A DNA stretch of 64,000 nucleotides, taken from IMG/VR virus record IMGVR_UViG_3300035698_029289, positions 9,980-73,979 of that record, one strand, 5' to 3'. A model generated the notes under the pieces. That model had not been told where the DNA came from, did not search any database, and saw only the letters and a list, made by a program, of their open reading frames with translations. This stretch comes from a virus. Position 1 is the stretch's first letter. Each line of letters opens with the position of its first letter. This document shows, one piece after another, positions 3,032 through 63,259 of the stretch. The position numbers were made by a program, and so were the translations under genes.

Positions 3032-3411
3032 AACAACACATAACTAAAACCCAGCTAAATGAATTGAGTGAGAAGGGGAAGGAGAGGCTGAGGAAGTGGT
3101 GGATTAAAAGACATCTTAAGAATGTAGATGAGTTAAGGATTACAATTTTTGGTAAGGGTGATAAAAAAGAAGCTCAAGATAATCATGATAAAAAAATGGC
3201 ACAGAGAGAATATCAAGAGCATGGTAGGTTTCTCTCCGTCGGAATGATGATAGAGTTTTTGGATGAGAAATATAAAAAGAATCCTTGGCCTGATTTCTGG
3301 GATGATAGAAAGGAAAACAGAAGAATTGATGAAATTGATGTAATAATTTCTTGGAAAGATGAACTCTGTGATGCCCTGTTTTTGGCTGTGAAAGAAGTAT
3401 TAGAAAAATGA
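3028..3411 (+). CDS. hypothetical protein, paralog of 56806..57156
   Basis: MKQHITKTQLNELSEKG...LSVGMMIEFL...ELCDALF.AVKEVLEK. Confidence 0.7.
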   Translation: MKQHITKTQLNELSEKGKERLRKWWIKRHLKNVDELRITIFGKGDKKEAQDNHDKKMAQREYQEHGRFLSVGMMIEFLDEKYKKNPWPDFWDDRKENRRIDEIDVIISWKDELCDALFLAVKEVLEK

Positions 3412-3926
3412 AGAAAAAGAAAGCAAGAACTAAGCCCTATGTTCGACCATACACAAGAACGGCAGTTTTACTTCCCAAAACTCAAAGATATAACTGGCTC
3501 GTCATGAAAAAGACTTTCCTTGCCGATCCAACAATTTCTCTCACCGACCTTGCGAAGAAATACAAAGTTTCTCAAAAGACTCTTCTCAATAAAGCTCGAA
3601 GAGAAAGATGGATGGCTTTGCGTGAAGAAATTCAGAAAAGAGCAGAGGAAAGAATGATTAGGGCAACAGAGGAAAAGCTCTCTGAGGTTAAAATGAGACA
3701 TTCTCAAATCGGTAAAATGCTTCAACATGAAGGAGTAAAGGCTATTCGTAAAGGGAAAGGGCCTAAAACTCCAAAACAAGCCCTAAAATTCACAACGGAA
3801 GGGGTGAGAATTGAAAGGGAGGCTGAGGGTGTGGAGAAAAGAGGACCGGCTATCGTCAACATTGTTCAACAACAAAAAGCGGTTGTAGACAAATACAGAT
3901 TTGAAGAAGGTGAGGTGGTGGAGTGA
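3408..3926 (+). CDS. terS: terminase small subunit
   Basis: HTH (ISLTDLAKKYKVSQKTLLNKARRERW) plus coiled coil, upstream of TerL. Confidence 0.7.
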   Translation: MKKKKARTKPYVRPYTRTAVLLPKTQRYNWLVMKKTFLADPTISLTDLAKKYKVSQKTLLNKARRERWMALREEIQKRAEERMIRATEEKLSEVKMRHSQIGKMLQHEGVKAIRKGKGPKTPKQALKFTTEGVRIEREAEGVEKRGPAIVNIVQQQKAVVDKYRFEEGEVVE

Positions 3927-4666
3927 AAGAAACTAGGGATAGAAAAATAGTAAGGAAACTCATTGATGACTATGGAGAGGAGTTTGTTGAGAAAGTGTGG
4001 CCCAAATTGCCGGGAAGCGAGTATGGCAACTTGGAAAGCATGGTTCTTTATTGTTTTTTGCGTCACTATAAGCCGAAGTATGTTTTGGAAGTAGGAACAG
4101 AGGTTCATGGTCGGACGACACACATTGTTCATAAAGCTCTTTTGGCTAATGGCGAATTTCAAAAACACATCATGTCCGACTTGGAGGGGAAAGTAGAAAA
4201 GGCTTTCGGGAATTTATGTCGAGATTTGCCGGTTAACCAGGAAAAGGTTAAGCTCTTGTCGGGGGTGATTCAACAGACTTTCAGAAAAATTGATCTTTCT
4301 ATGGTCGATTTCTTGCTTATTGATGCCGATCACCAGCGAGATTTTGCAACTTTTTACCTAGATGAACTTATTCCGCCGTTGGAAGACGGAACTTATGTTC
4401 ATATCCATGATGTTAATTTGTCCGGGAATTGGAGTTGGAGGCCTGCTCCAGACAGTGAAGTCGAAGAATTTCTTGAGCGCAGGTCAAAGGGGCGATTTCC
4501 TTTGAAAAAACTTTTCTGGTTGGAAGACTGGTGCATTAATCTAAAATATGTAGACAACAGAAATAAGATTAATGAACGCTTTCCTTTTATTGGGTCGTTT
4601 TCGGAATCGGAAACTGGGCTTCCTTATTCAAGTTCTGCATCCTATTGGGAGAAACTGGGAAAATGA
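3923..4666 (+). CDS. class I SAM methyltransferase (Methyltransf_24-like)
   Basis: VLEVGT, DFLLIDADH, GTYVHIHD. Confidence 0.8.
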   Translation: MKETRDRKIVRKLIDDYGEEFVEKVWPKLPGSEYGNLESMVLYCFLRHYKPKYVLEVGTEVHGRTTHIVHKALLANGEFQKHIMSDLEGKVEKAFGNLCRDLPVNQEKVKLLSGVIQQTFRKIDLSMVDFLLIDADHQRDFATFYLDELIPPLEDGTYVHIHDVNLSGNWSWRPAPDSEVEEFLERRSKGRFPLKKLFWLEDWCINLKYVDNRNKINERFPFIGSFSESETGLPYSSSASYWEKLGK

Positions 4667-56805: not shown

Positions 56806-57156
56806 TCATTTCTCTAATTTTTCCTTTACTGGTTGCCAGAGAGCATCTACGAGCTCTTTTTTTTCAACCTCAAATAATTTAACTATTGGTTCACCCTTTT
56901 CATCCTTGGTGCTATAGCCACCCAAAACTCTATAAAGTGGATGGTTCTTTATTTCAATTTTACCCAGATTTTCACCTAAAAACTCTATCATCTGACCGAT
57001 GGAGAGGAGGGGGTCTGTCCCATACATAAAACCATACTTCCCAACATCTGTGTCCCAGACCATATAGTAGCCGACTTTTTCAATCCATTCCTTTAATCGT
57101 CTATGGCCCTTCTCACTCAATTCATTTAGTTGTTTAAGTGTTATTGTTTGCTTCAT
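56806..57156 (-). CDS. hypothetical protein, paralog of 3028..3411
   Basis: MKQTITLKQLNELSEKG...LSIGQMIEFL...ELVDALW. Confidence 0.7.
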   Translation of the reverse strand: MKQTITLKQLNELSEKGHRRLKEWIEKVGYYMVWDTDVGKYGFMYGTDPLLSIGQMIEFLGENLGKIEIKNHPLYRVLGGYSTKDEKGEPIVKLFEVEKKELVDALWQPVKEKLEK

Positions 57157-58313
57157 GGCTTCCAAATTTTCACCACATCTCCGAAGGGTACTTCTACCTC
57201 ATAATCATATCCAGCCTCGCAAGGCACCAACCACAGCACGGGATAATCCGGTTCTTGCTCGGGGAATAATGTTTCAAGGTCCGTAAAAGCAATTAAAAGT
57301 TTAGGATTCAATCCTCTTTTTTTGACTTCTTCGAATACCGGTGAATGGTCAGTCCCACCTCCCCCAATAAATCTCGGCAAAGTCTCTGTCTTCTCGATTC
57401 TGCCGAAATCTTGAACCTTGGCGTCACAAACAATATAATAGCCATTCAGATTGGGAAAGGCTTCGAGCAAAGATTTGAATTCTTCATAAAACTTAGTAAG
57501 AGTTTGAGGTTGAATGCTTCCCGAGCTATCATAGGCGACTACCACATCTTTCAAATCGTCTTGGCTGTAAGTGCCGGGTAGAATGAAGTCGCTCTCCAAA
57601 AATCTCCTGTCCCGCACAGAAAAGGTGTAGTCTTTGTCTGACGCCGAGAGATAATATTTGAGCAAATCCTTCCAATTTGTTTCGGGAATGAAGATAAATT
57701 CTTCAAGTTTGCGCAAGAGAGTATCCGGCAAATCTCCTCTATGTCTGTTCAGGGCGTCTTTGATATTTTTTTCCCATTCCTTTTTTGATTTCTTTGGCTT
57801 TCCCTGTGTTTTTTTCTTTCCCTGAAGTTTCTCTTTTATCTTTTCAAGAAGCCCACCCTGTCCCTTCTTCTGTTGGTTTTTCCAATACTTGTGGTTGCCC
57901 CATCCCTGTTGTTTTCTTTTGCTCTTCGGCAACATGTCATAAATTGTTTCCGCCGACAACCCATAATATTTTCTCTTTAACAACACTCCTTTGGGAAGCT
58001 GATAACCATAATCTACTTTAATCAAGGGGTTGATGGCGAGATCCGTGGCAATATTCCACTTCAAGTGTTCTTTTTTCTTTTTGCGGTAAAGATGAAGGAA
58101 AACACAATGCAAGATTTCATGAATCAAAACTCCTTTTGTTTCTTCTGCGGATATCTTTTCAAGCCAAGCCGGATTGTAGAAGAGGTGAGTACCATCTGTT
58201 CCCATAGTCCCCGCCTCTTTTTTCTCAACAAGTTCCAAGTTGTCCAATAAGTCAATAAAGAAAGGTTCTTCTTTTTCTAGCTCCTTAATGGCTTTTGAAA
58301 GCTTTTTATTCAT
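57153..58313 (-). CDS. DUF2201-like metallopeptidase + VWA domain protein
   Basis: HEILH, WNIATD, DSSGS (MIDAS), GGGTD, FTD. Confidence 0.9.
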   Translation of the reverse strand: MNKKLSKAIKELEKEEPFFIDLLDNLELVEKKEAGTMGTDGTHLFYNPAWLEKISAEETKGVLIHEILHCVFLHLYRKKKKEHLKWNIATDLAINPLIKVDYGYQLPKGVLLKRKYYGLSAETIYDMLPKSKRKQQGWGNHKYWKNQQKKGQGGLLEKIKEKLQGKKKTQGKPKKSKKEWEKNIKDALNRHRGDLPDTLLRKLEEFIFIPETNWKDLLKYYLSASDKDYTFSVRDRRFLESDFILPGTYSQDDLKDVVVAYDSSGSIQPQTLTKFYEEFKSLLEAFPNLNGYYIVCDAKVQDFGRIEKTETLPRFIGGGGTDHSPVFEEVKKRGLNPKLLIAFTDLETLFPEQEPDYPVLWLVPCEAGYDYEVEVPFGDVVKIWKP

Positions 58314-59376
58314 TCTCTTCTTCGGTTGCTGATACCATCATTTTTTCTTCTTCGCTCATTTGGTTTTCCAATCTCTTGAGAGAACCGAATGGCAATTGTG
58401 TTTTGCTCGCCCACTCAATGATGCTTGTCCGGATGGAGGGATCTTTAGGGAGTTTGAAAGATTCACCTTTTTTGATTTTCCTCATAATGGTTTTAACGGA
58501 AACAAGCTCGTCATTGAAAGTCACCACTGCAAATTCATGGGCGACTGAAGGGCCGATTGCCGTTGAAAGCAACCTTTCAACAATGGCCTTTTTATTTTTC
58601 CCTTTAATTAAGTCAGACGCAAAAGTCCACGATCTAGGACTGGGGAAAATCTTTTGTTTCCCTCTCGGCATTCGGAACAAGAAGCGCGGCCTTGCCATAA
58701 GAAATTCAATTATTCTTTTATCAACTCCGTTTTTCTTTGCCCACCTTTTCCACACTTCAACACTAGGCTTGACTTCAATGTGAATGAATCTGTTTGCAAG
58801 CGGTGCAGGGAGTCGGTAAACCGTGGTTGATTCGCCCTCCCTATTGCCTGCTGCTACCATTCGCCACCTTTTGGGGAAGTTATAACTACCGAGTCTTTTG
58901 TCCAAAATCAATTCAAAAGCAGCTGCTTGGACTGAGAGAGAAGCGTTGTTGATTTCGTCAAGAAACAAAATGCCCCTAGCATTGCCATTGGGAAGAAATT
59001 CGGGAGGAATCCACCGCGCAAGATTCTTTTTCCTGTCGACAATCGGCAAGCCGCGCAAGTCTACAGGATTAAGTTGGGAGAGCCTCAAATCAATCACTTT
59101 CCATCCGAGTTCTTTCGCCACCTGTGTAACGGAATCTGATTTTCCTATTCCCGGCGGTCCCCAAAGAAAAGGAACAACATTTGACTTTGGCAGGAAGTCC
59201 TTGAGGAAAACCTTTACTTCGTCAATGTTCCAAGACAAGGTGGCTTTTCTCGATCGCAAGGAAGATTCTTTTGCTACGGATCCAGGATTATAAATAGGAC
59301 CAGAAGTTATGGATACCCCAGAGGTCCCACTCCCAATAATTCTCCCATGAGGAAGATCTTTAAGGTTTCTTTTCAT
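58306..59376 (-). CDS. MoxR-family AAA+ ATPase
   Basis: GPPGIGKS, DLRGLP, LFLDEIN, AAGN, LANRF, PSPRSW. Confidence 0.92.
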   Translation of the reverse strand: MKRNLKDLPHGRIIGSGTSGVSITSGPIYNPGSVAKESSLRSRKATLSWNIDEVKVFLKDFLPKSNVVPFLWGPPGIGKSDSVTQVAKELGWKVIDLRLSQLNPVDLRGLPIVDRKKNLARWIPPEFLPNGNARGILFLDEINNASLSVQAAAFELILDKRLGSYNFPKRWRMVAAGNREGESTTVYRLPAPLANRFIHIEVKPSVEVWKRWAKKNGVDKRIIEFLMARPRFLFRMPRGKQKIFPSPRSWTFASDLIKGKNKKAIVERLLSTAIGPSVAHEFAVVTFNDELVSVKTIMRKIKKGESFKLPKDPSIRTSIIEWASKTQLPFGSLKRLENQMSEEEKMMVSATEEENE

Positions 59377-59758
59377 TTTCTTTCCTCTTTTTCGGCTCTT
59401 CATTCTCTTCCCTTTCTTCCCTAGGACTACCAAGCAAAATCATATTCTCGGCAACAATTTCGGTGCTCACTCTTTCTTGACCATCAGAATCGGTGTATTT
59501 TCTTGTTTGAAGTCTTCCTTCTATGAAGACCATTTTCCCTTTCTTGAGAAATTGGCCGAAGATTTCCGCCAACTTACTCCAAGCGATAATCCTGTGAAAC
59601 TGGACTTCTTCTTTCTTTTCACCGGAAGCAAGAGTCCATTCCCTGTTCGTAGCAACAACAACACTACAGAAAGGAGTATTGTTGGTGGTTCTTTTCAACT
59701 CCACATCTGCTACCACATTGCCGATTAGCATGACGAGATTTAATGAGCGAGAGGCCAT
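59360..59758 (-). CDS. ssb: single-stranded DNA-binding protein
   Basis: MASRSLNLVMLIGN...VATN...EGRLQTRKY...TEIVA. Confidence 0.93.
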   Translation of the reverse strand: MASRSLNLVMLIGNVVADVELKRTTNNTPFCSVVVATNREWTLASGEKKEEVQFHRIIAWSKLAEIFGQFLKKGKMVFIEGRLQTRKYTDSDGQERVSTEIVAENMILLGSPREEREENEEPKKRKENEKKP

Positions 59759-60138: not shown

Positions 60139-60738
60139 CTAAATAACCTCTCTTACGGAAAAGCTATTGCCGACAAATCCTCTTTTTTCTCCCCGTAATA
60201 GAAAAGCAAGGGCGGCATTTGCTCCTGTAGCAGAGGCTAATCGAATAAATGAAGCCGCACCATCTGCCTCGCATACGTCAAAGTCGGAGAGGCTATCATC
60301 AGGTACAGTATAATTCTCCGCCCAACACACTTCAAAAGTCATCAATTCGGAGAAGCCACAGTGGAGACAATCAACCTTATTTTTAATGGCAAAGTCTTGA
60401 ACTATTTGCCGTGCTTGTTTATTGTCGAAGGTATCAATGATTAAATCAAAGTCTTTGAGCAATTGAGGTGCATTTTCTTTTGTTAGCTTTTCGGTGATAA
60501 TCTCCACCTTTCTGCCTATCCACCGATATAAATTGTATTGCAAGGTCTCAGTTTTCTTCATGCCTACCTGTTCTCGTAGGAAGAACTGAATGTTCAAATT
60601 TCTCTGTGCCACTATATCAAAGTCCAAAATCGTGAACTCTGCTATCTCTCTTGCATCCGGCAAAAGAGAGGCAAGCAAATTGCTACCCAATGCACCTGCC
60701 CCTAAAATGATTACTTTTTTCTTAGTCTTTTTTTTCAT
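60139..60738 (-). CDS. ThiF/E1-like adenylyltransferase
   Basis: ILGAGALGS, DFD.V...NL..Q, K, IDTFDN..AR, DVCE. Confidence 0.88.
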   Translation of the reverse strand: MKKKTKKKVIILGAGALGSNLLASLLPDAREIAEFTILDFDIVAQRNLNIQFFLREQVGMKKTETLQYNLYRWIGRKVEIITEKLTKENAPQLLKDFDLIIDTFDNKQARQIVQDFAIKNKVDCLHCGFSELMTFEVCWAENYTVPDDSLSDFDVCEADGAASFIRLASATGANAALAFLLRGEKRGFVGNSFSVREVI

Positions 60739-61087
60739 TTATCCACCAATTTGGAAAATCATAGTCTTCTCTATTGTGATATTTTGGTTTTTCTTTATGA
60801 TAAAGAACCCTTATTATTCTTGATGGTTTTATGTCTTCCCCAAAAGATATTTCATCATTTCCCATGTCAGTAAAGTAATTTACTCTTTTCTTTATTACTA
60901 AAACAGCCTGCCCAAATTGTTTAGCAAATTCAAGATTCCTCGTAAAATAGCACGGAGATTTTAATCCTTCTTTTAGAATTTTTTTTATATTCCTTCGTGA
61001 AGTTCCATGATATAAAAGAAAAACCCCATGTTCGATAGATGGTTTTTGACCACAAACACTTCCTCCTGCGAAAACTTTACTAAGCAT
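60722..61087 (-). CDS. ADP-ribosyltransferase-fold protein
   Basis: YHGT..N...ILKEGL, YFT...A..F, downstream E and IKP..I. Confidence 0.7.
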   Translation of the reverse strand: MLSKVFAGGSVCGQKPSIEHGVFLLYHGTSRRNIKKILKEGLKSPCYFTRNLEFAKQFGQAVLVIKKRVNYFTDMGNDEISFGEDIKPSRIIRVLYHKEKPKYHNREDYDFPNWWINEKKD

Positions 61088-61520
61088 AACTTTTTCTCCG
61101 CAATAAGTTTAAATATCCTTTCTCTGGATTTACTTCTTTTTTGCTCTCAACCTCAATTGTCAATTCCCGCGCCCCCTTTTTTCCTCTTTTAATCCAATCT
61201 TCCTTTGATTCCAACTGGCCCAAGAAAGTGATTTCCGTGAACTGTCCATTAGGAAGTTCTGTGACAATGATGAATCTTATCGGAAAGGGTGAAAATGCAA
61301 TCACCCATGCCTTAAACATCGTTTCATCATCATGGGACATTTCCATAAGCCCTGGCGGGTGAATATGAGTTAATCCCCACACAATCCCCGGCCATCTTGT
61401 ATGCAGCCTCCAAATCAGCCCTGCTGGAAATGTTACAGATGTACTCGATCCGACCACCCAATGCAAAATATCTTTGCTGGATGAAAGAATCGCACCTGTT
61501 TCTCTAATAAAATTTTTCAT
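61080..61520 (-). CDS. JAB/MPN metalloprotease
   Basis: N-terminal E (ETGA) and HIHP.....SHDD. Confidence 0.8.
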   Translation of the reverse strand: MKNFIRETGAILSSSKDILHWVVGSSTSVTFPAGLIWRLHTRWPGIVWGLTHIHPPGLMEMSHDDETMFKAWVIAFSPFPIRFIIVTELPNGQFTEITFLGQLESKEDWIKRGKKGARELTIEVESKKEVNPEKGYLNLLRRKSYA

Positions 61521-61697
61521 TTATCCTTCCTCTTTTTTCTTTATGGGAGTTCCGTCTTCGCCAAATTTAATTCCTTTCAACATCATTTCAATAAAAGCAA
61601 GCATCACCAAGGCTCTTCCCCTTTCTTTACATTCTCCCTTGGAGAATTGCCCATCTAAAATAGCAACCATTGTGTCCCAATATTTGCTTCTTTTCAC
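61521..61697 (-). CDS. 58 aa hypothetical protein
   Basis: Below track cutoff; GTG start overlaps upstream stop: MKRSKYWDTMVAILDGQF...KKKEEG. Confidence 0.5.
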   Translation of the reverse strand: MKRSKYWDTMVAILDGQFSKGECKERGRALVMLAFIEMMLKGIKFGEDGTPIKKKEEG

Positions 61698-61993
61698 TTT
61701 TTCTCCAATCTTTTAACTCGCTTTTCTAATTTCTTCATTTGCCTCGTCGCTTTTTTCAACTCTCTGTTTGTGTTTCTCAACTCTTTGATTTTTGTTCTTA
61801 GTTGCCGGACTCGTTCTCTCAGGGCTTGATTGTCCTCAATTCTCCGTCTATCAAAGGCGCTGATTCCAAACCGGATGAAGGATTTAAAGCGAACCCAATC
61901 ATAACGAAACCAGTTTTTAGTTCCTTTATTAAAAGAGGTTATGATATTATTTTTGTAAATCCACTTATGGTTTTTAAGTTCGCGGTTTAACAT
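61694..61993 (-). CDS. coiled-coil hypothetical protein
   Basis: SD GGGGTG; C-terminal heptads. Confidence 0.55.
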   Translation of the reverse strand: MLNRELKNHKWIYKNNIITSFNKGTKNWFRYDWVRFKSFIRFGISAFDRRRIEDNQALRERVRQLRTKIKELRNTNRELKKATRQMKKLEKRVKRLEKK

Positions 61994-62207
61994 TTTCACC
62001 CCCTTCCTTTTTTTTTGGTTTGCCTAGTACCTTATCAAATGCTTTTTTCTTACATCTATGACAAATCGTGCAACCATCAATGTCATTCCAAAGGTAATTG
62101 CTAGTCCCACAGTAATCACAAACTGTGCCTTCTGGTGCTCCATCTATTATACCTATTGGTGGGTTATTCAATAACCACTTAATCGTTTTTATTAATCTTT
62201 TAAACAT
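61974..62207 (-). CDS. small Zn-finger protein
   Basis: CDYC...CHRC. Confidence 0.6.
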   Translation of the reverse strand: MFKRLIKTIKWLLNNPPIGIIDGAPEGTVCDYCGTSNYLWNDIDGCTICHRCKKKAFDKVLGKPKKKEGGENVKPRT

Positions 62208-62210
62208 TTT

Positions 62211-62315
62211 TCACCCCCTTCCTTTTCTCCGTTTAGGAAAATTTTTAAGAGATCCATATTTTGCTTTATGTCTTTTTTTTCTTTCGGCCAGATTTCGAGG
62301 CTTACCCCTAGGCAT
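62211..62315 (-). CDS. 34 aa Arg/Lys-rich peptide
   Basis: MPRGKPRNLAERKKRHKAKYGSLKNFPKRRKGRG; SD AAAGGAGGT. Confidence 0.55.
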   Translation of the reverse strand: MPRGKPRNLAERKKRHKAKYGSLKNFPKRRKGRG

Positions 62316-62327
62316 TTTTACCTCCTT

Positions 62328-63188
62328 TCATTCTCTTGTAATATATAAACTTCCTTCTTCTTTTTGAAATGTCCGTGCTAATACCGCCAAAGAGCCCATG
62401 GTTTGTTTTCTTTCATTGCTTAAACAAAATCCTGCGTCATAAATTCTCATATCGTTTTTAATTATTGATTTAATAGTTTGTTTTCCAATTTTCCATACGA
62501 CTGTAAATTTATCTGTTCCTCTCTGGGTAAATCTTACTAATTTCCCCCCAGCTTGTTTAATTGAGTGCTGCAGCCGCCCCGCAAAGGTTTTCCTAAATTC
62601 CTCAATCCTTTTTTCTCTCTCTGCTTGTGACAATTTTAATTTTTCCAGCTCTTTAAACTGCCGGAAGCTTTGTCGCTGAAGAGAAAGAAGTAAGAAATAG
62701 TAGCGGATTTCAGGTGTAATTCCCTTAATCTCACCAATCTCTTTTTCTTTCTCAAAAGCTTCCTTCACTTGATTTAATGTGCTACGGTCGGCTGAATAGT
62801 CCACTCCGACCGAATAAAATCTTCCATCTTCCCACTCTACAAATTTAACTATCTCCCAAGCTGGTTGATCTAAGAAATGAACTTTAATGGTTTCACCCTG
62901 TCCCTTGCGAAACAAATTTTCAAAGTTCCAAGGCACAATTTCTTCTCCAAGTGCCAAGCCCCTATATTTCTTAACTTTTTCAAGTGCTTCCTCTATTTCA
63001 AGAGGAGTGGGTTTTCCTTTATATTTAATAGTATTTCCTAGTTGGAATTTATACCAACCATCTTCAAAGAATGGAGGAGATGCTAGTTTCCTTCCCACAA
63101 TTCTTCCTTTATATTTGCCCCACCCTGAAATCATGGGTAGAACCGCTGTTTTTTCTTCCGTAAACTTTTCCAAATCTATTGCTCCCAT
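62328..63188 (-). CDS. hypothetical protein upstream of the E1/JAB genes
   Basis: C-terminal domain with a single Cys in DAGFCLS. Confidence 0.65.
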   Translation of the reverse strand: MGAIDLEKFTEEKTAVLPMISGWGKYKGRIVGRKLASPPFFEDGWYKFQLGNTIKYKGKPTPLEIEEALEKVKKYRGLALGEEIVPWNFENLFRKGQGETIKVHFLDQPAWEIVKFVEWEDGRFYSVGVDYSADRSTLNQVKEAFEKEKEIGEIKGITPEIRYYFLLLSLQRQSFRQFKELEKLKLSQAEREKRIEEFRKTFAGRLQHSIKQAGGKLVRFTQRGTDKFTVVWKIGKQTIKSIIKNDMRIYDAGFCLSNERKQTMGSLAVLARTFQKEEGSLYITRE

Positions 63189-63259
63189 TATAAACTCCTT
63201 ATCATTATAGGTTAATTCCCATATCCCAGCCCTCCGAAGAGAAGAGCTGAGGATAGAAA

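What the first reader, a model, noticed from the sequence alone, without database searches (positions are those of the whole stretch)
60139..63188. Phage-encoded ubiquitin-like conjugation module (E1 + JAB + Cys protein) with an embedded ART
Seen: co-directional genes for a 286 aa protein with a lone Cys (DAGFCLS), a JAB peptidase, an ART-fold protein and a stand-alone E1 with a DVCE Cys. No ThiS/MoaD/Ubl or thiamine/molybdopterin genes were recognised in the window. Known: E1/E2/JAB sets act in bacterial anti-phage systems (CBASS Cap2/Cap3, Bil). Inference: a counter-defence or host-protein tagging system with an unknown modifier.
Basis: partly seen in the sequence, partly recalled or inferred. 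Interest (0 to 1): 0.72.

Follow-up and report, generated by a model that had tools for sequence, protein, structure and literature searches.

The report
Phage E1, JAB and cysteine-protein module
This phage carries three linked genes (an activating enzyme, a trimming protease and a single-cysteine protein) that sit in the same order in two dozen other uncultured phages and look like a stripped-down, virus-owned protein-tagging machine whose tag and target are still unknown.

Summary
The core observation holds. The region encodes a 199-aa ThiF/E1 enzyme (Pfam 1.8e-22), a 146-aa protein with a complete JAMM motif, and a 286-aa protein with one cysteine.

The linkage is not chance. A search with the E1 alone fetched 22 IMG/VR loci. 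With the eight fetched earlier these are 23 contigs, and 22 carry the cysteine protein, then usually the JAB, then the E1, on one strand. GenBank virus Rctr197k and one MAG contig carry the set too. A ~520-aa vWA-like (MIDAS) protein usually comes first, often behind a tRNA-like gene.

Both cysteines (E1 C156, p286 C255) are invariant in twelve divergent members compared.

The p286 model shows two OB-like barrels, a long helix and a C-terminal domain. That domain hits UBC/UEV/RWD folds only at Z 4-5.5, so E2-like is plausible, not proven.

The ART-like gene and the Gly-ended small ORFs have no counterpart in any relative. They are lineage-specific inserts.

No Ubl was found in the 74-kb record. 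Some relatives nest a separate E1-Ubl-E2-JAB cassette inside the module.

The vWA gene is missing here; the contig ends 0.8 kb upstream.

This scan flagged the same module earlier on other DNA.

A counter-defence role is untested.

The parts
62328..63188 (-). p286: the single-Cys protein. N-terminal double OB-like barrel (~11-137), long helix (159-212), C-terminal helix, four strands, Cys loop and helix (196-286). Candidate E2-like thioester carrier; the C255 codon is at 62424-62426.
   Evidence: ORF. The family has 50 or more clusters. The C-terminal domain has 481 clusters at 50% identity, nearly always at the C-terminus of the ~150 listed. AF2 model pLDDT 86.5. VIA-align gives Mpa double OB Z 5.5, and for the C-terminal domain FANCL 5.5, Tsg101 UEV 4.9, Cap2 E2 domain 4.5 and Ubc9 4.4. 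G253 is 100%, C255 99% and D259 95% conserved in 115 members. The Cys is also kept in the divergent clade.
61080..61520 (-). JAB/JAMM-type metallopeptidase candidate (146 aa). E7 codon at 61500-61502; HxHx7SxxD motif at 61326-61367.
   Evidence: Motif invariant in 10 family members down to 22% identity. Weak Pfam RadC-JAB or Prok-JAB hits (E ~0.02) in 3 of 10 members. The model is poor (pLDDT 66) and the fold searches are inconclusive. It lies between p286 and E1 in 19 or more related contigs.
60139..60738 (-). Minimal stand-alone E1-like adenylyltransferase (199 aa). The invariant C156 codon is at 60271-60273.
   Evidence: Pfam ThiF 1.8e-22. PADLOC Cap2-type 'E1-E2' models reach 4e-12 on the E1 half only. 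Best solved relatives by family profile are Uba1 AAD, Uba4, UBA6, SAE2, MoeB, UBA5, ThiF, MccB and Cap2. Invariant GxGxxGS, D39, D41, R46, N47, Q51, K62, D102, D105, N106, R110 and C156. C156 is kept in the divergent clade.
60722..61087 (-). ART-like mini-protein (121 aa, 'YHGTS' motif). It overlaps the JAB stop by 8 nt and the E1 start by 17 nt. It is a lineage-specific insert, not a conserved module part.
   Evidence: Weak PARP/Tpt1 hits. ESM Atlas feature and structure neighbours are ~100-aa viral proteins, Tpt1, PARP and Arr. The only sequence hit in 5.8 billion proteins is one 99%-identical record. No hit in any related locus. Overlaps.
61521..62315 (-). Four small ORFs between p286 and JAB: 34 aa (62211-62315, ends in Gly), 77 aa with CxxC...CxxC (61974-62207), 101 aa coiled coil (61694-61999), and 58 aa (61521-61697, ends in Gly). 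Lineage-specific filler; not conserved with the module.
   Evidence: ORFs. No family hits beyond coiled-coil noise. No homologue in any related locus. In relatives L007-L010, L016, L025 and L027 the three core genes abut or overlap with nothing between them.
63187..63215 (-). Promoter-like site (10 of 12) directly before the p286 start. No terminator-like site on the minus strand between it and the E1 stop.
   Evidence: The number of promoter-like sites in the region is not above the shuffled expectation, so this is weak evidence.
57153..59433 (-). Neighbouring MoxR-type AAA ATPase (58306-59433) and vWA/metallopeptidase-motif protein (57153-58313). Not core parts, but in relative L006 the same pair sits inside the module, between JAB and E1.
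   Evidence: ORFs. Homologues at L006:9204-11583, between JAB and the second cassette.

Best explanation
The three genes are the enzymatic core of a conserved phage module. The usual order is a tRNA-like RNA (frequent), a ~520-aa vWA/MIDAS protein, p286, JAB, then E1. I read it as a ubiquitination-like acyl-transfer cascade.

Inferred mechanism:
1. The minimal E1 adenylates a C-terminal carboxylate. In relatives that have one, this would be a Ubl. Here it would be an unidentified protein tail or a Ubl encoded in the missing ~22% of the genome.
2. The acyl group passes to the invariant E1 Cys156.
3. It then passes to the invariant Cys255 of the UBC-like C-terminal domain of p286. The OB and coiled-coil half of p286 provides oligomerisation or target binding.
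4. The acyl group ends on a lysine of a phage or host protein.
5. The JAMM peptidase matures the modifier or reverses the tag.

Shown here: the gene identities, the linkage, the invariant residues and the domain layout. Inferred: every chemical step, the E2 role of p286, and the identity of modifier and target. The ART-like gene and the small ORFs are passengers inserted into the operon.
For: - Identity of E1.
- JAMM motif invariant across the family.
- Linkage: eight loci fetched with p286 all contain E1 downstream, and four were seen at once with JAB.
- Independent linkage test: 22 loci fetched with E1 alone show vWA-like, p286, JAB and E1 in the same order and strand in nearly all. p286 is present in 22 of 23 distinct contigs; the exception is cut at the contig start.
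- The set is also in GenBank Rctr197k and an Obscuribacterales MAG contig.
- Both cysteines are invariant in twelve divergent members compared.
- The p286 C-terminal domain has a helix, four strands, a Cys loop and a helix. It gives repeated UBC/UEV/RWD hits, including Cap2's E2 domain.
- Most close family members have a His seven residues after the Cys. Iyer et al. 2006 (PMC1779556, table row 6d) note a conserved His C-terminal to the Cys in a bacterial E2-like family.
- In L003, L004, L006 and L017 a second cassette is nested in or beside the module. It has a ThiF E1, a small protein with weak ThiS/Ub-Mut7C hits, a protein with an 'HPx...PCWG' motif read by eye as UBC-like, and a second JAB. 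This ties the module to Ubl biology.
Against: - No Ubl is recognisable in this record, nor between the core genes of the nearest clades.
- The E2 fold match is modest (Z 4-5.5) and shares the list with PepSY-like and other alpha+beta folds.
- No Pfam or PADLOC E2 model hits any of 29 family members. hhalign against the cassette-2 E2-like protein is not significant.
- The window copy has Gln at the position of the family His and Glu at the position of the near-invariant Asp.
- The E1 family lacks the Arg of the canonical 'NLxRQ' motif. It has an invariant Arg four residues earlier instead.
- The frequent tRNA-like gene upstream of the vWA gene in relatives points towards RNA-linked chemistry.
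Confidence: 0.5

Rival explanations
1. The module does RNA-directed chemistry rather than protein tagging. E1 (with JAB and the Cys protein) would act in a sulfur relay or an adenylation on a tRNA-like RNA held by the vWA protein. Precedents are TtuB/TtuC, Urm1/Uba4 or SAMP2/UbaA in tRNA thiolation, and the E1-like TcdA in ct6A formation. p286 Cys255 would carry a persulfide.
For: - A tRNA or tRNA-like gene lies within 250 nt upstream of the vWA gene, on the same strand, in L007, L009, L010, L015, L018, L026, L029 and L030, and directly before p286 in L025.
- In L007, L009 and L010 it is closed by a 9-bp stem formed by its flanks (TGCAGGAAT / ATTCCTGCA), like a bacterial Y RNA.
- In Rctr197k the module lies inside a large tRNA array.
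- Uba4, MoeB, ThiF and TcdA are among the solved relatives of the E1.
- Earlier notes of this scan read the vWA protein as Ro60-like. That is a lead, not evidence.
Against: - No PP-loop thiolase (TtuA/Ncs6), rhodanese or cysteine desulfurase was seen next to the module in the loci read.
- No sulfur-carrier Ubl occurs in this record.
- A JAMM peptidase with an intact site has no role in TcdA-type chemistry.
- The window itself has no tRNA within 60 kb of the module.
- TROVE was not detected in the vWA proteins by Pfam or by a PDB profile search.
Confidence: 0.2
2. The cascade is E2-less. E1 directly activates and transfers a protein C-terminus, as in the archaeal SAMP/UbaA/HvJAMM1 system. p286 would be a substrate, scaffold or adaptor, with the vWA protein docking on it, and not a thioester carrier. 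Its Cys would serve another role, such as metal binding or redox.
For: - E2-less E1 + JAMM systems exist (SAMP/UbaA/HvJAMM1: PMC4443979, PMC2948915).
- The E2 assignment of p286 rests on modest Z-scores only.
- No E2 HMM hits the family.
- Many divergent p286 members end in acidic tails (for example DDDDD, DYDD) that could be ligands of a MIDAS site.
- The double OB domain resembles the Mpa inter-domain, an oligomerisation module.
Against: - A Cys conserved at 99% sits in a G-x-C-x(3-5)-D loop just after the last strand of the sheet. This is where UBC enzymes carry their catalytic Cys, and such conservation is hard to explain for a mere scaffold.
- The p286 C-terminus is not constant in length or final residue across the wider family, so it is unlikely to be the activated carboxylate.
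Confidence: 0.2
3. E1 is a MccB/PaaA-like peptide-modifying adenylase. It would act on one of the small Gly-ended ORF products (34 or 58 aa) to make a modified peptide.
For: - MccB is among the solved relatives of the E1 family (E 4e-7).
- Two small ORFs in the operon end in Gly.
Against: - The small ORFs have no homologue in any related locus, while E1, JAB and p286 are always together.
- In several relatives the three genes abut with no small ORF between them.
- MccB's N-terminal peptide-clamp domain is absent from a 199-aa protein.
Confidence: 0.03
4. The genes are unrelated neighbours in a crowded phage early region.
For: Unrelated genes (HNH endonucleases, a phosphorylase, an exonuclease, the ART-like gene) are freely inserted between the core genes in several phages.
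Against: The order and strand are kept in 20 or more contigs. These range from ~26-kb fragments to 572-kb jumbo phages and go down to ~20-30% protein identity.
Confidence: 0.02

Closest known systems
Type II CBASS Cap2 (E2-E1 fusion) with Cap3 (JAB) (Ledvina et al. and Jenson et al. 2023; PMC10097602)
   Same: An E1 adenylation domain, an E2-type Cys domain and a JAMM peptidase with no dedicated Ubl gene. The E1 matches PADLOC Cap2 models (to 4e-12) and Cap2 structures. The p286 C-terminal domain aligns to Cap2's E2 domain at Z 4.5.
   Different: - Here E1 and the E2-like domain are separate proteins.
- The E2-like domain is fused to OB barrels and a coiled coil.
- There is no CD-NTase or effector.
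- The partner is a vWA/MIDAS protein.
- The owner is a phage, not a defence island.
Bil systems, BilABCD (row 6d of Iyer et al. 2006, PMC1779556; background in PMC11601596)
   Same: Separate E1, E2-like and JAB genes. Iyer et al. describe the E2-like family as lacking the HPN His and having a conserved His C-terminal to the Cys. Most p286 relatives have C-x6-H.
   Different: - Bil has a Ubl (BilA) and a large tandem IAD-AAD-CYS E1.
- Here E1 is a single 199-aa domain and no Ubl was found in the record.
- The window copy has Gln at the His position.
Type I Bub operons (Ubl-E2 fusion BubAB, JAB-E1 fusion BubCD, BubE; PMC11601596)
   Same: A two-part logic of a multi-domain protein ending in an E2 domain that lacks the last UBC helices, with JAB and E1 activities encoded next to it.
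   Different: - Bub works through Ser and Tyr oxyesters and has no catalytic Cys. Here both Cys are invariant.
- JAB and E1 are not fused here.
- The N-terminal half of p286 looks OB-like, not beta-grasp.
- The idea of a JAB cleavage site before the conserved TPE was not borne out, because the preceding Gly is not invariant.
- I did not search for a DUF6527/BubE homologue.
Archaeal SAMP/UbaA/HvJAMM1 (PMC4443979, PMC2948915) and Thermus TtuB/TtuC systems
   Same: A small stand-alone E1 of the MoeB/ThiF type paired with a JAMM peptidase. These systems have dual links to protein tagging and tRNA thiolation, which echoes the tRNA-like genes beside the module in relatives.
   Different: Those systems are E2-less and always have a beta-grasp Ubl with a C-terminal GG. 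Here a Cys protein and a vWA protein are the fixed partners, and the Ubl is absent or optional.
E1-like genes reported in viruses of Asgard archaea ('Nidhogg', bioRxiv 10.1101/2021.07.29.454249)
   Same: A virus carrying several ThiF/E1-like genes, proposed to interact with ubiquitin-like systems.
   Different: That report describes no JAB, Cys-protein or vWA partner genes in the passages found. Its hosts are archaea. The present phage encodes a CHAP-type lysin by my reading of the sequence, so its host is probably a bacterium.

Membership tests
E1-like superfamily (ThiF/MoeB/UBA adenylation domain) | Rossmann-type domain that matches Pfam ThiF above the gathering score, with a GxGxxG loop | tested here: met
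   80.1 bits against a cut-off of 28.1, E 1.8e-22. GAGALGS is invariant as GxGxxGS in the family.
E1-like superfamily (ThiF/MoeB/UBA adenylation domain) | ATP/Mg-binding residues: Asp after beta-2, Lys, and the DxxDN Asp | tested here: met
   D39, D41, K62, D102, D105, N106 and R110 are invariant in 7 family members and align with Uba1 and Uba4. Their roles are assigned from general knowledge of MoeB and Uba1.
E1-like superfamily (ThiF/MoeB/UBA adenylation domain) | Arg of the 'NLxRQ' motif | tested here: not met
   The family has R-N-[LIV]-x(2-4)-Q, with no Arg before the Gln. An invariant Arg (R46) lies four residues earlier. The consequence for activity is unknown.
E1-like superfamily (ThiF/MoeB/UBA adenylation domain) | Catalytic Cys on the crossover loop | tested here: inconclusive
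   C156 is invariant in all 12 divergent members aligned. The C-terminal half does not align to solved E1s by sequence, so equivalence to the crossover-loop Cys is not shown.
JAB/JAMM (MPN+) metallopeptidases | E...HxHx7Sx2D zinc and catalytic motif | tested here: met
   E7, H52, H54, S62 and D65 are invariant in 10 members down to 22% identity. The same motif was found by pattern in divergent loci L018, L022, L025, L026 and L031.
JAB/JAMM (MPN+) metallopeptidases | Match to a curated JAB HMM (Pfam JAB, Prok-JAB or RadC) | tested here: not met
   No hit for the window protein. Only sub-threshold RadC (2 members) and Prok-JAB (1 member) hits at E ~0.02 among 10 members.
JAB/JAMM (MPN+) metallopeptidases | MPN fold | tested here: inconclusive
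   The model is poor (pLDDT 66.3). Rpn11, BRCC36 and JAMM1 appear only at Foldseek E > 0.1 and at VIA Z 4.1-4.7, below DHHA1-like hits at Z 5-6.5.
E2 / UBC-like superfold | Alpha-1, four-strand meander, then a Cys-bearing loop, then a crossover helix | tested here: inconclusive
   The model (pLDDT 86.5) has H202-212, E216-223, E227-234, E237-244, E248-251, C255 and H264-278. VIA Z: FANCL 5.5, Tsg101 UEV 4.9, Cap2 residues 9-148 4.5, Ubc9 4.4, Vps23 UEV 4.2. PepSY-like and other folds score alike.
E2 / UBC-like superfold | Invariant catalytic Cys | tested here: met
   C255 is 99% conserved in 115 members, and G253 100%. It is kept in the divergent clade.
E2 / UBC-like superfold | HPN motif before the Cys, or a match to the Pfam UQ_con or Prok-E2 models | tested here: not met
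   No such motif is present. No E2 family appears among the hits of 29 members at E <= 1. There is no UQ_con hit in the record.
E2 / UBC-like superfold | Forms an E1-dependent thioester | not testable with these tools
   This needs biochemistry.
ADP-ribosyltransferase, H-Y-E clade (PARP/Tpt1/Arr-like) | NAD-binding His in an 'HGT'-type motif, with the ART split beta-sheet fold | tested here: inconclusive
   A 'YHGTS' motif is present. All HMM hits are sub-threshold and cover only residues ~22-45. The ESM Atlas model is of low confidence (pLDDT 0.62), with TM 0.54-0.57 to Tpt1 and PARP clusters.
Type II CBASS (Cap2/Cap3) | CD-NTase plus effector genes, with an E2-E1 fusion protein | tested here: not met
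   E1 is a stand-alone 199-aa protein. PADLOC hits cover only the E1 half of Cap2 models, and no other module protein hits a PADLOC model.
Bil system | Ubl gene (BilA) and a tandem-domain E1 (BilD) | tested here: not met
   No ThiS or Ub-Mut7C match in the 74-kb record, though the record is only 78% complete. The E1 is single-domain.
Ro60/TROVE-vWA with Y RNA (for the upstream partner in relatives) | TROVE ring domain followed by a vWA domain with MIDAS, and an associated Y RNA with a tRNA-like domain | tested here: inconclusive
   MIDAS residues (D329, S331, S333, T395) are invariant. A tRNA-like gene lies just upstream in 8 or more loci, with an enclosing stem in L007, L009 and L010. There is no TROVE Pfam hit and no Ro60 hit in the PDB profile search. 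The gene is absent from the window itself.

The most novel reading that the evidence does not exclude
Tailed phages, including jumbo phages, own a previously undescribed ubiquitination-like machine. It consists of a minimal E1, a JAMM peptidase, an OB-coiled-coil-E2 fusion and a vWA (possibly Ro60-like) adaptor, often with a tRNA-mimic RNA. It would covalently tag host or phage proteins (or an RNA-protein particle) during infection. In some phages it works together with a second, nested Ubl-E1-E2-JAB cascade. That would make protein tagging a viral weapon in bacteria, not only a bacterial defence.
Probability: 0.35. Interest if true: 0.85.

Novelty: new variant of a known kind. Interest (0 to 1): 0.68.

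Why it matters
The bacterial E1/E2/JAB systems characterised in the papers I read (type II CBASS, Bil, Bub) are host-encoded, and two of them are proven anti-phage defences.

Here the same enzyme logic is fixed in phage genomes. The architecture is new: a stand-alone minimal E1 and an E2-like domain fused to OB barrels, with a vWA partner in relatives. None of the non-E1 parts is covered by Pfam, PHROGs, NCBIfam or PADLOC.

If it conjugates proteins, it would be a viral counterpart of the defence systems. It could be a possible counter-defence, and a compact model for how E1-E2 cascades work without a dedicated Ubl. If instead it serves the adjacent tRNA-like RNAs, it would link E1/JAB chemistry to a phage RNA particle.

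Either way the two invariant cysteines give clear, cheap mutational tests.

Tried and rejected
- **Complex prediction** (two copies of E1 plus p286 residues 196-286, with alignments): ipSAE 0.00 in both runs, no verdict. This is not evidence either way.
I could not read the contigs of the closest JAB and p286 relatives. These include a 1991-bp JGI contig length shared by P0003 and P0044, which suggests one contig carries both genes.
- **Searches that found nothing:**
  - Pattern scans of viral and metagenome contigs with the E1, the JAB alignment A1, P0008 and the window p286.
  - blastn of the region and tblastn of p286 against GenBank phages.
- **Sequence routes to an E2 assignment, all negative:**
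  - Pfam on 29 members.
  - An exhaustive profile search with the C-terminal domain returned only proteins of the same architecture.
  - hhalign against the cassette-2 E2-like protein gave E 0.25.
  - ESM Atlas on residues 196-286 gave no named feature hit, and only generic alpha+beta neighbours from a poor Atlas model.
- **Ubl-E2 fusion idea.** I considered p286 as a Ubl-E2 fusion cleaved by JAB before the conserved 'TPE'. I dropped it because the preceding Gly is replaced by E, Y or R in 5 of the 29 members, and TPE reads as a helix cap.
- **p286 C-terminus as the activated carboxylate.** Dropped because divergent members carry extra acidic tails.
- **Paralogy of the p286 middle part with the vWA protein.** tblastn gave 24% identity over 181 aa at E ~1e-3. 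hhalign did not confirm it (E 0.21).
- **Gastranaerophilales and other MAG hits to the E1.** These are cellular ThiF genes next to arginine-synthesis genes and are unrelated to the module.
- **Literature.** Five full-text searches found no description of this gene set. The library lacks most subscription journals, so this is not proof of novelty.

Full report
**1. What is in the window**

The window is bases 9980-73979 of a 73,979-bp linear IMG/VR virus record, estimated 78% complete. From about 56.8 kb to the end, all genes run on the minus strand. In transcription order they are:

- a DnaQ-like exonuclease, cut by the contig end
- a 150-aa protein with an N-terminal hydrophobic segment
- p286 (62328-63188)
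- four small ORFs of 34, 77, 101 and 58 aa
- a 146-aa ORF (61080-61520)
- a 121-aa ORF (60722-61087)
- a 199-aa ORF (60139-60738)
- a 110-aa ORF, SSB, a MoxR-type AAA ATPase, and a vWA protein with an HExxH motif

The 121-aa ORF overlaps its neighbours by 8 and 17 nt. A promoter-like site lies just before p286 and another just after the 199-aa ORF. There is no terminator-like site on the minus strand between them. That scan is not above chance, so it carries little weight.

**2. Identity of the four named genes**

*E1.* The 199-aa protein is a ThiF-family E1: Pfam 80.1 bits, E 1.8e-22. Its best NCBIfam matches are ThiF and MoeB, all below their cut-offs. PADLOC Cap2 'E1-E2' models match its E1 half. 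Its solved relatives are Uba4, SAE2, Uba1 and MoeB. With a family profile the list adds UBA6, UBA5, ThiF, MccB, NAE and Cap2.

*JAB.* The 146-aa protein hits no library. It does carry E7 and H52-x-H54-x7-S62-x2-D65.

*p286.* It has one Cys, C255, and no library hit.

*ART-like.* The 121-aa protein has only sub-threshold PARP and Tpt1 matches, all around a YHGTS motif. ESM Atlas neighbours are ~100-aa viral proteins, Arr, Tpt1 and PARP, at TM about 0.55. The only sequence hit in the 5.8-billion-protein set is one 99%-identical record.

**3. Is the linkage real?**

The JAB family is tiny in the word-indexed protein set, with 3 clusters. p286 has 50 or more.

An alignment of p286 relatives (A2) fetched eight IMG/VR loci. 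tblastn then showed the E1 downstream of the p286 homologue in all eight, and the JAB between them in the four closer ones. Reading the ORFs showed a 145-aa protein with the JAMM motif in the other four as well, with the three genes abutting or overlapping.

As an independent test I searched with the E1 family alone (A4) and got 22 loci. Together with the first set these are 23 distinct contigs, from 23 kb to 572 kb. HMMs of each protein and motif scans gave these counts:

- p286 upstream of E1 in 22 of 23 contigs. The exception has E1 550 bp from the contig start.
- JAB between p286 and E1 in at least 20 (19 by HMM, plus L018 by motif).
- A ~520-aa protein with an invariant MIDAS motif (DxSxS...T) upstream of p286 in about 20.

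The order and strand are always the same. The set also occurs in GenBank 'Virus Rctr197k', where only the E1 is annotated, as 'ThiF-like'. It also occurs in a 7-kb Obscuribacterales MAG contig. Other MAG hits are cellular ThiF genes beside arginine-synthesis genes and are unrelated.

Unrelated genes are often inserted between the core genes. Examples are HNH endonucleases, a PNP-family phosphorylase, an exonuclease and a GNAT.

The ART-like gene and all four small ORFs of the window have no homologue in any of these loci. I therefore read them as such inserts and not as parts of the system.

**4. Conserved residues**

*JAB.* E7, H52, H54, S62 and D65 are invariant in 10 members down to 22% identity. 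Three members give weak RadC-JAB or Prok-JAB hits.

*E1.* GxGxxGS, D39, D41, R46, N47, Q51, K62, D102, D105, N106, R110 and C156 are invariant. The usual Arg of 'NLxRQ' is missing, and an invariant Arg lies four residues earlier.

*p286.* In 115 members from an exhaustive profile search, G253 is 100%, C255 99% and D259 95% conserved. That search found 481 clusters at 50% identity. In nearly all of the ~150 listed, the domain lies at the very C-terminus of a 240-310-aa protein. Most close members have His seven residues after the Cys. The window copy has Glu at the Asp position and Gln at the His position.

In the most divergent clade, which includes jumbo phages, both the p286 Cys and the E1 Cys are still present.

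**5. Fold of p286**

The AF2 model built on 29 sequences has pLDDT 86.5. It shows a beta-rich N-half, a helix spanning 159-212, then four strands, the Cys loop and a helix. Foldseek found nothing significant.

VIA-align against 48,161 chains gave two groups of hits:

- N-half: the Mpa double-OB inter-domain (Z 5.5, 106 residues aligned) and RPA OB folds.
- Residues ~195-282: a run of UBC-superfold members. These are FANCL (5.5), Tsg101 UEV (4.9), the E2 domain of Cap2 (4.5), Ubc9 (4.4), Vps23 UEV (4.2), and RWD proteins of kinetochore and Mediator.

These Z values are in the range the tool itself calls common. PepSY-like and VirB8-like folds are interleaved in the list, and the Atlas neighbours are generic.

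The Cys sits directly after the fourth strand, where UBC enzymes have theirs. Iyer et al. 2006 describe a bacterial E2-like family that lacks HPN but has a His after the Cys. I therefore rate the E2-like role as the most likely reading, at about 0.5-0.6, and not established.

The JAB model is poor (pLDDT 66). Its fold searches are inconclusive.

**6. Where is the modifier?**

No ThiS, Ub-Mut7C or UQ_con match exists in the 74-kb record. In the clades nearest the window the three genes abut without a Ubl.

In L003, L004, L006 and L017 a second cassette lies beside or inside the module. In L006 and L017 it sits exactly between the JAB and the E1. It encodes:

- a second ThiF E1
- a 76-99-aa protein with weak ThiS/Ub-Mut7C hits, ending in ...GG(G)K, ...GGR or ...EGN
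- a ~500-aa protein with an 'HPx...PCWG' motif that I read by eye as UBC-like
- a second JAB

So the module is tied to Ubl biology, but it can exist without its own Ubl, as Cap2/Cap3 does.

**7. The upstream partner and the RNA lead**

After my own analysis I consulted earlier notes of this scan. Several describe, on other genomes, a set of 'vWA/Ro60-like protein, Cys or OB protein, JAB, Ubl, E1', with tRNA-like RNAs. I tested what I could:

- A tRNA or tRNA-like gene lies within 250 nt upstream of the vWA gene, on the same strand, in L007, L009, L010, L015, L018, L026, L029 and L030, and before p286 in L025.
- In L007, L009 and L010 ARAGORN assigns it three different or odd identities. It is enclosed by a perfect 9-bp stem formed by its flanks, which resembles a bacterial Y RNA.
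- TROVE itself could not be confirmed.

The window has neither the vWA gene nor a nearby tRNA-like gene. The contig ends 0.8 kb upstream of p286. The record's 12 ordinary tRNAs lie 60 kb away.

This lead raises the weight of an RNA-directed rival, meaning tRNA thiolation-type or TcdA-type chemistry. I put that rival at 0.2.

**8. Verdict**

It is only weakly confirmed for the ART fold.

This is a conserved, phage-borne E1 + JAB + Cys-protein module of the ubiquitination-like kind, with a new architecture and no entry in the protein-family libraries searched. The ART and the Gly-ended ORFs are not part of it. The modifier, the target and any counter-defence role remain open.

No paper found in five full-text searches describes the set. 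The nearest mention is E1-like genes in Asgard-archaeal viruses.

Noticed in passing
L006:11669-14799; L004:4824-7833; L003:4676-7832; L017:5796-9122: A second four-gene cassette is nested in or beside the module in four related phages. It encodes a ThiF E1, a 76-99-aa protein with weak ThiS/Ub-Mut7C hits, a ~500-aa protein with a coiled coil and an 'HPx...PCWG' motif (UBC-like by eye), and a second JAB. These phages therefore carry two E1, two E2-like and two JAB genes. The cassette is absent from the window record.
   Followed up: partly
L007:6133-6207, L009:6193-6271, L010:736-811 (also L015, L018, L026, L029, L030): A tRNA-like gene lies directly upstream of the vWA gene. In three near-identical phages ARAGORN gives it different or odd anticodons. 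It is enclosed by a 9-bp stem formed by its flanks (TGCAGGAAT / ATTCCTGCA), which is a Y-RNA-like layout.
   Followed up: partly
L004:4369-4959: The E1 reading frame of this relative is open from 4369, but its first ATG, GTG or TTG is at 4657. Its 5' end overlaps a 331-aa Zn-ribbon/HNH-like ORF (3392-4387) in another frame. This may reflect an endonuclease insertion, a frameshift, or an unusual start.
   Followed up: no
window 57153-59433: A MoxR-type AAA ATPase sits next to a vWA protein with an HExxH motif. The homologous pair lies inside the module (between JAB and E1) in relative L006, but was not found in the other loci.
   Followed up: partly
L002:7133-9787 (record bases just before the window): An array of 12 ordinary tRNA genes on the minus strand, interrupted by ORFs that include an HNH-like gene.
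   Followed up: no
KX853510.1 176756-186183 (L033, L034): GenBank virus Rctr197k (197 kb, from a DAMO/anammox enrichment) carries the vWA-like, p286-like, JAB and E1 genes spread over ~9 kb inside a very large tRNA array. Only the E1 is annotated, as 'ThiF-like'. The vWA-like gene is entered as a misc_feature.
   Followed up: partly
L022, L025, L028, L031 (p286 homologues): Divergent p286 homologues end in short poly-acidic, aromatic tails (for example ...DYDDDDDD, ...GWDDDDD). Close relatives end one residue after a conserved 'ITR'. These tails could be ligands for the MIDAS site of the vWA partner. This is speculation.
   Followed up: no
window 61974-62207: The 77-aa ORF has two CxxC pairs (a zinc-ribbon-like pattern) and a weak DUF7573 hit (E 0.0035). 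It is unique to this phage among the loci compared.
   Followed up: no
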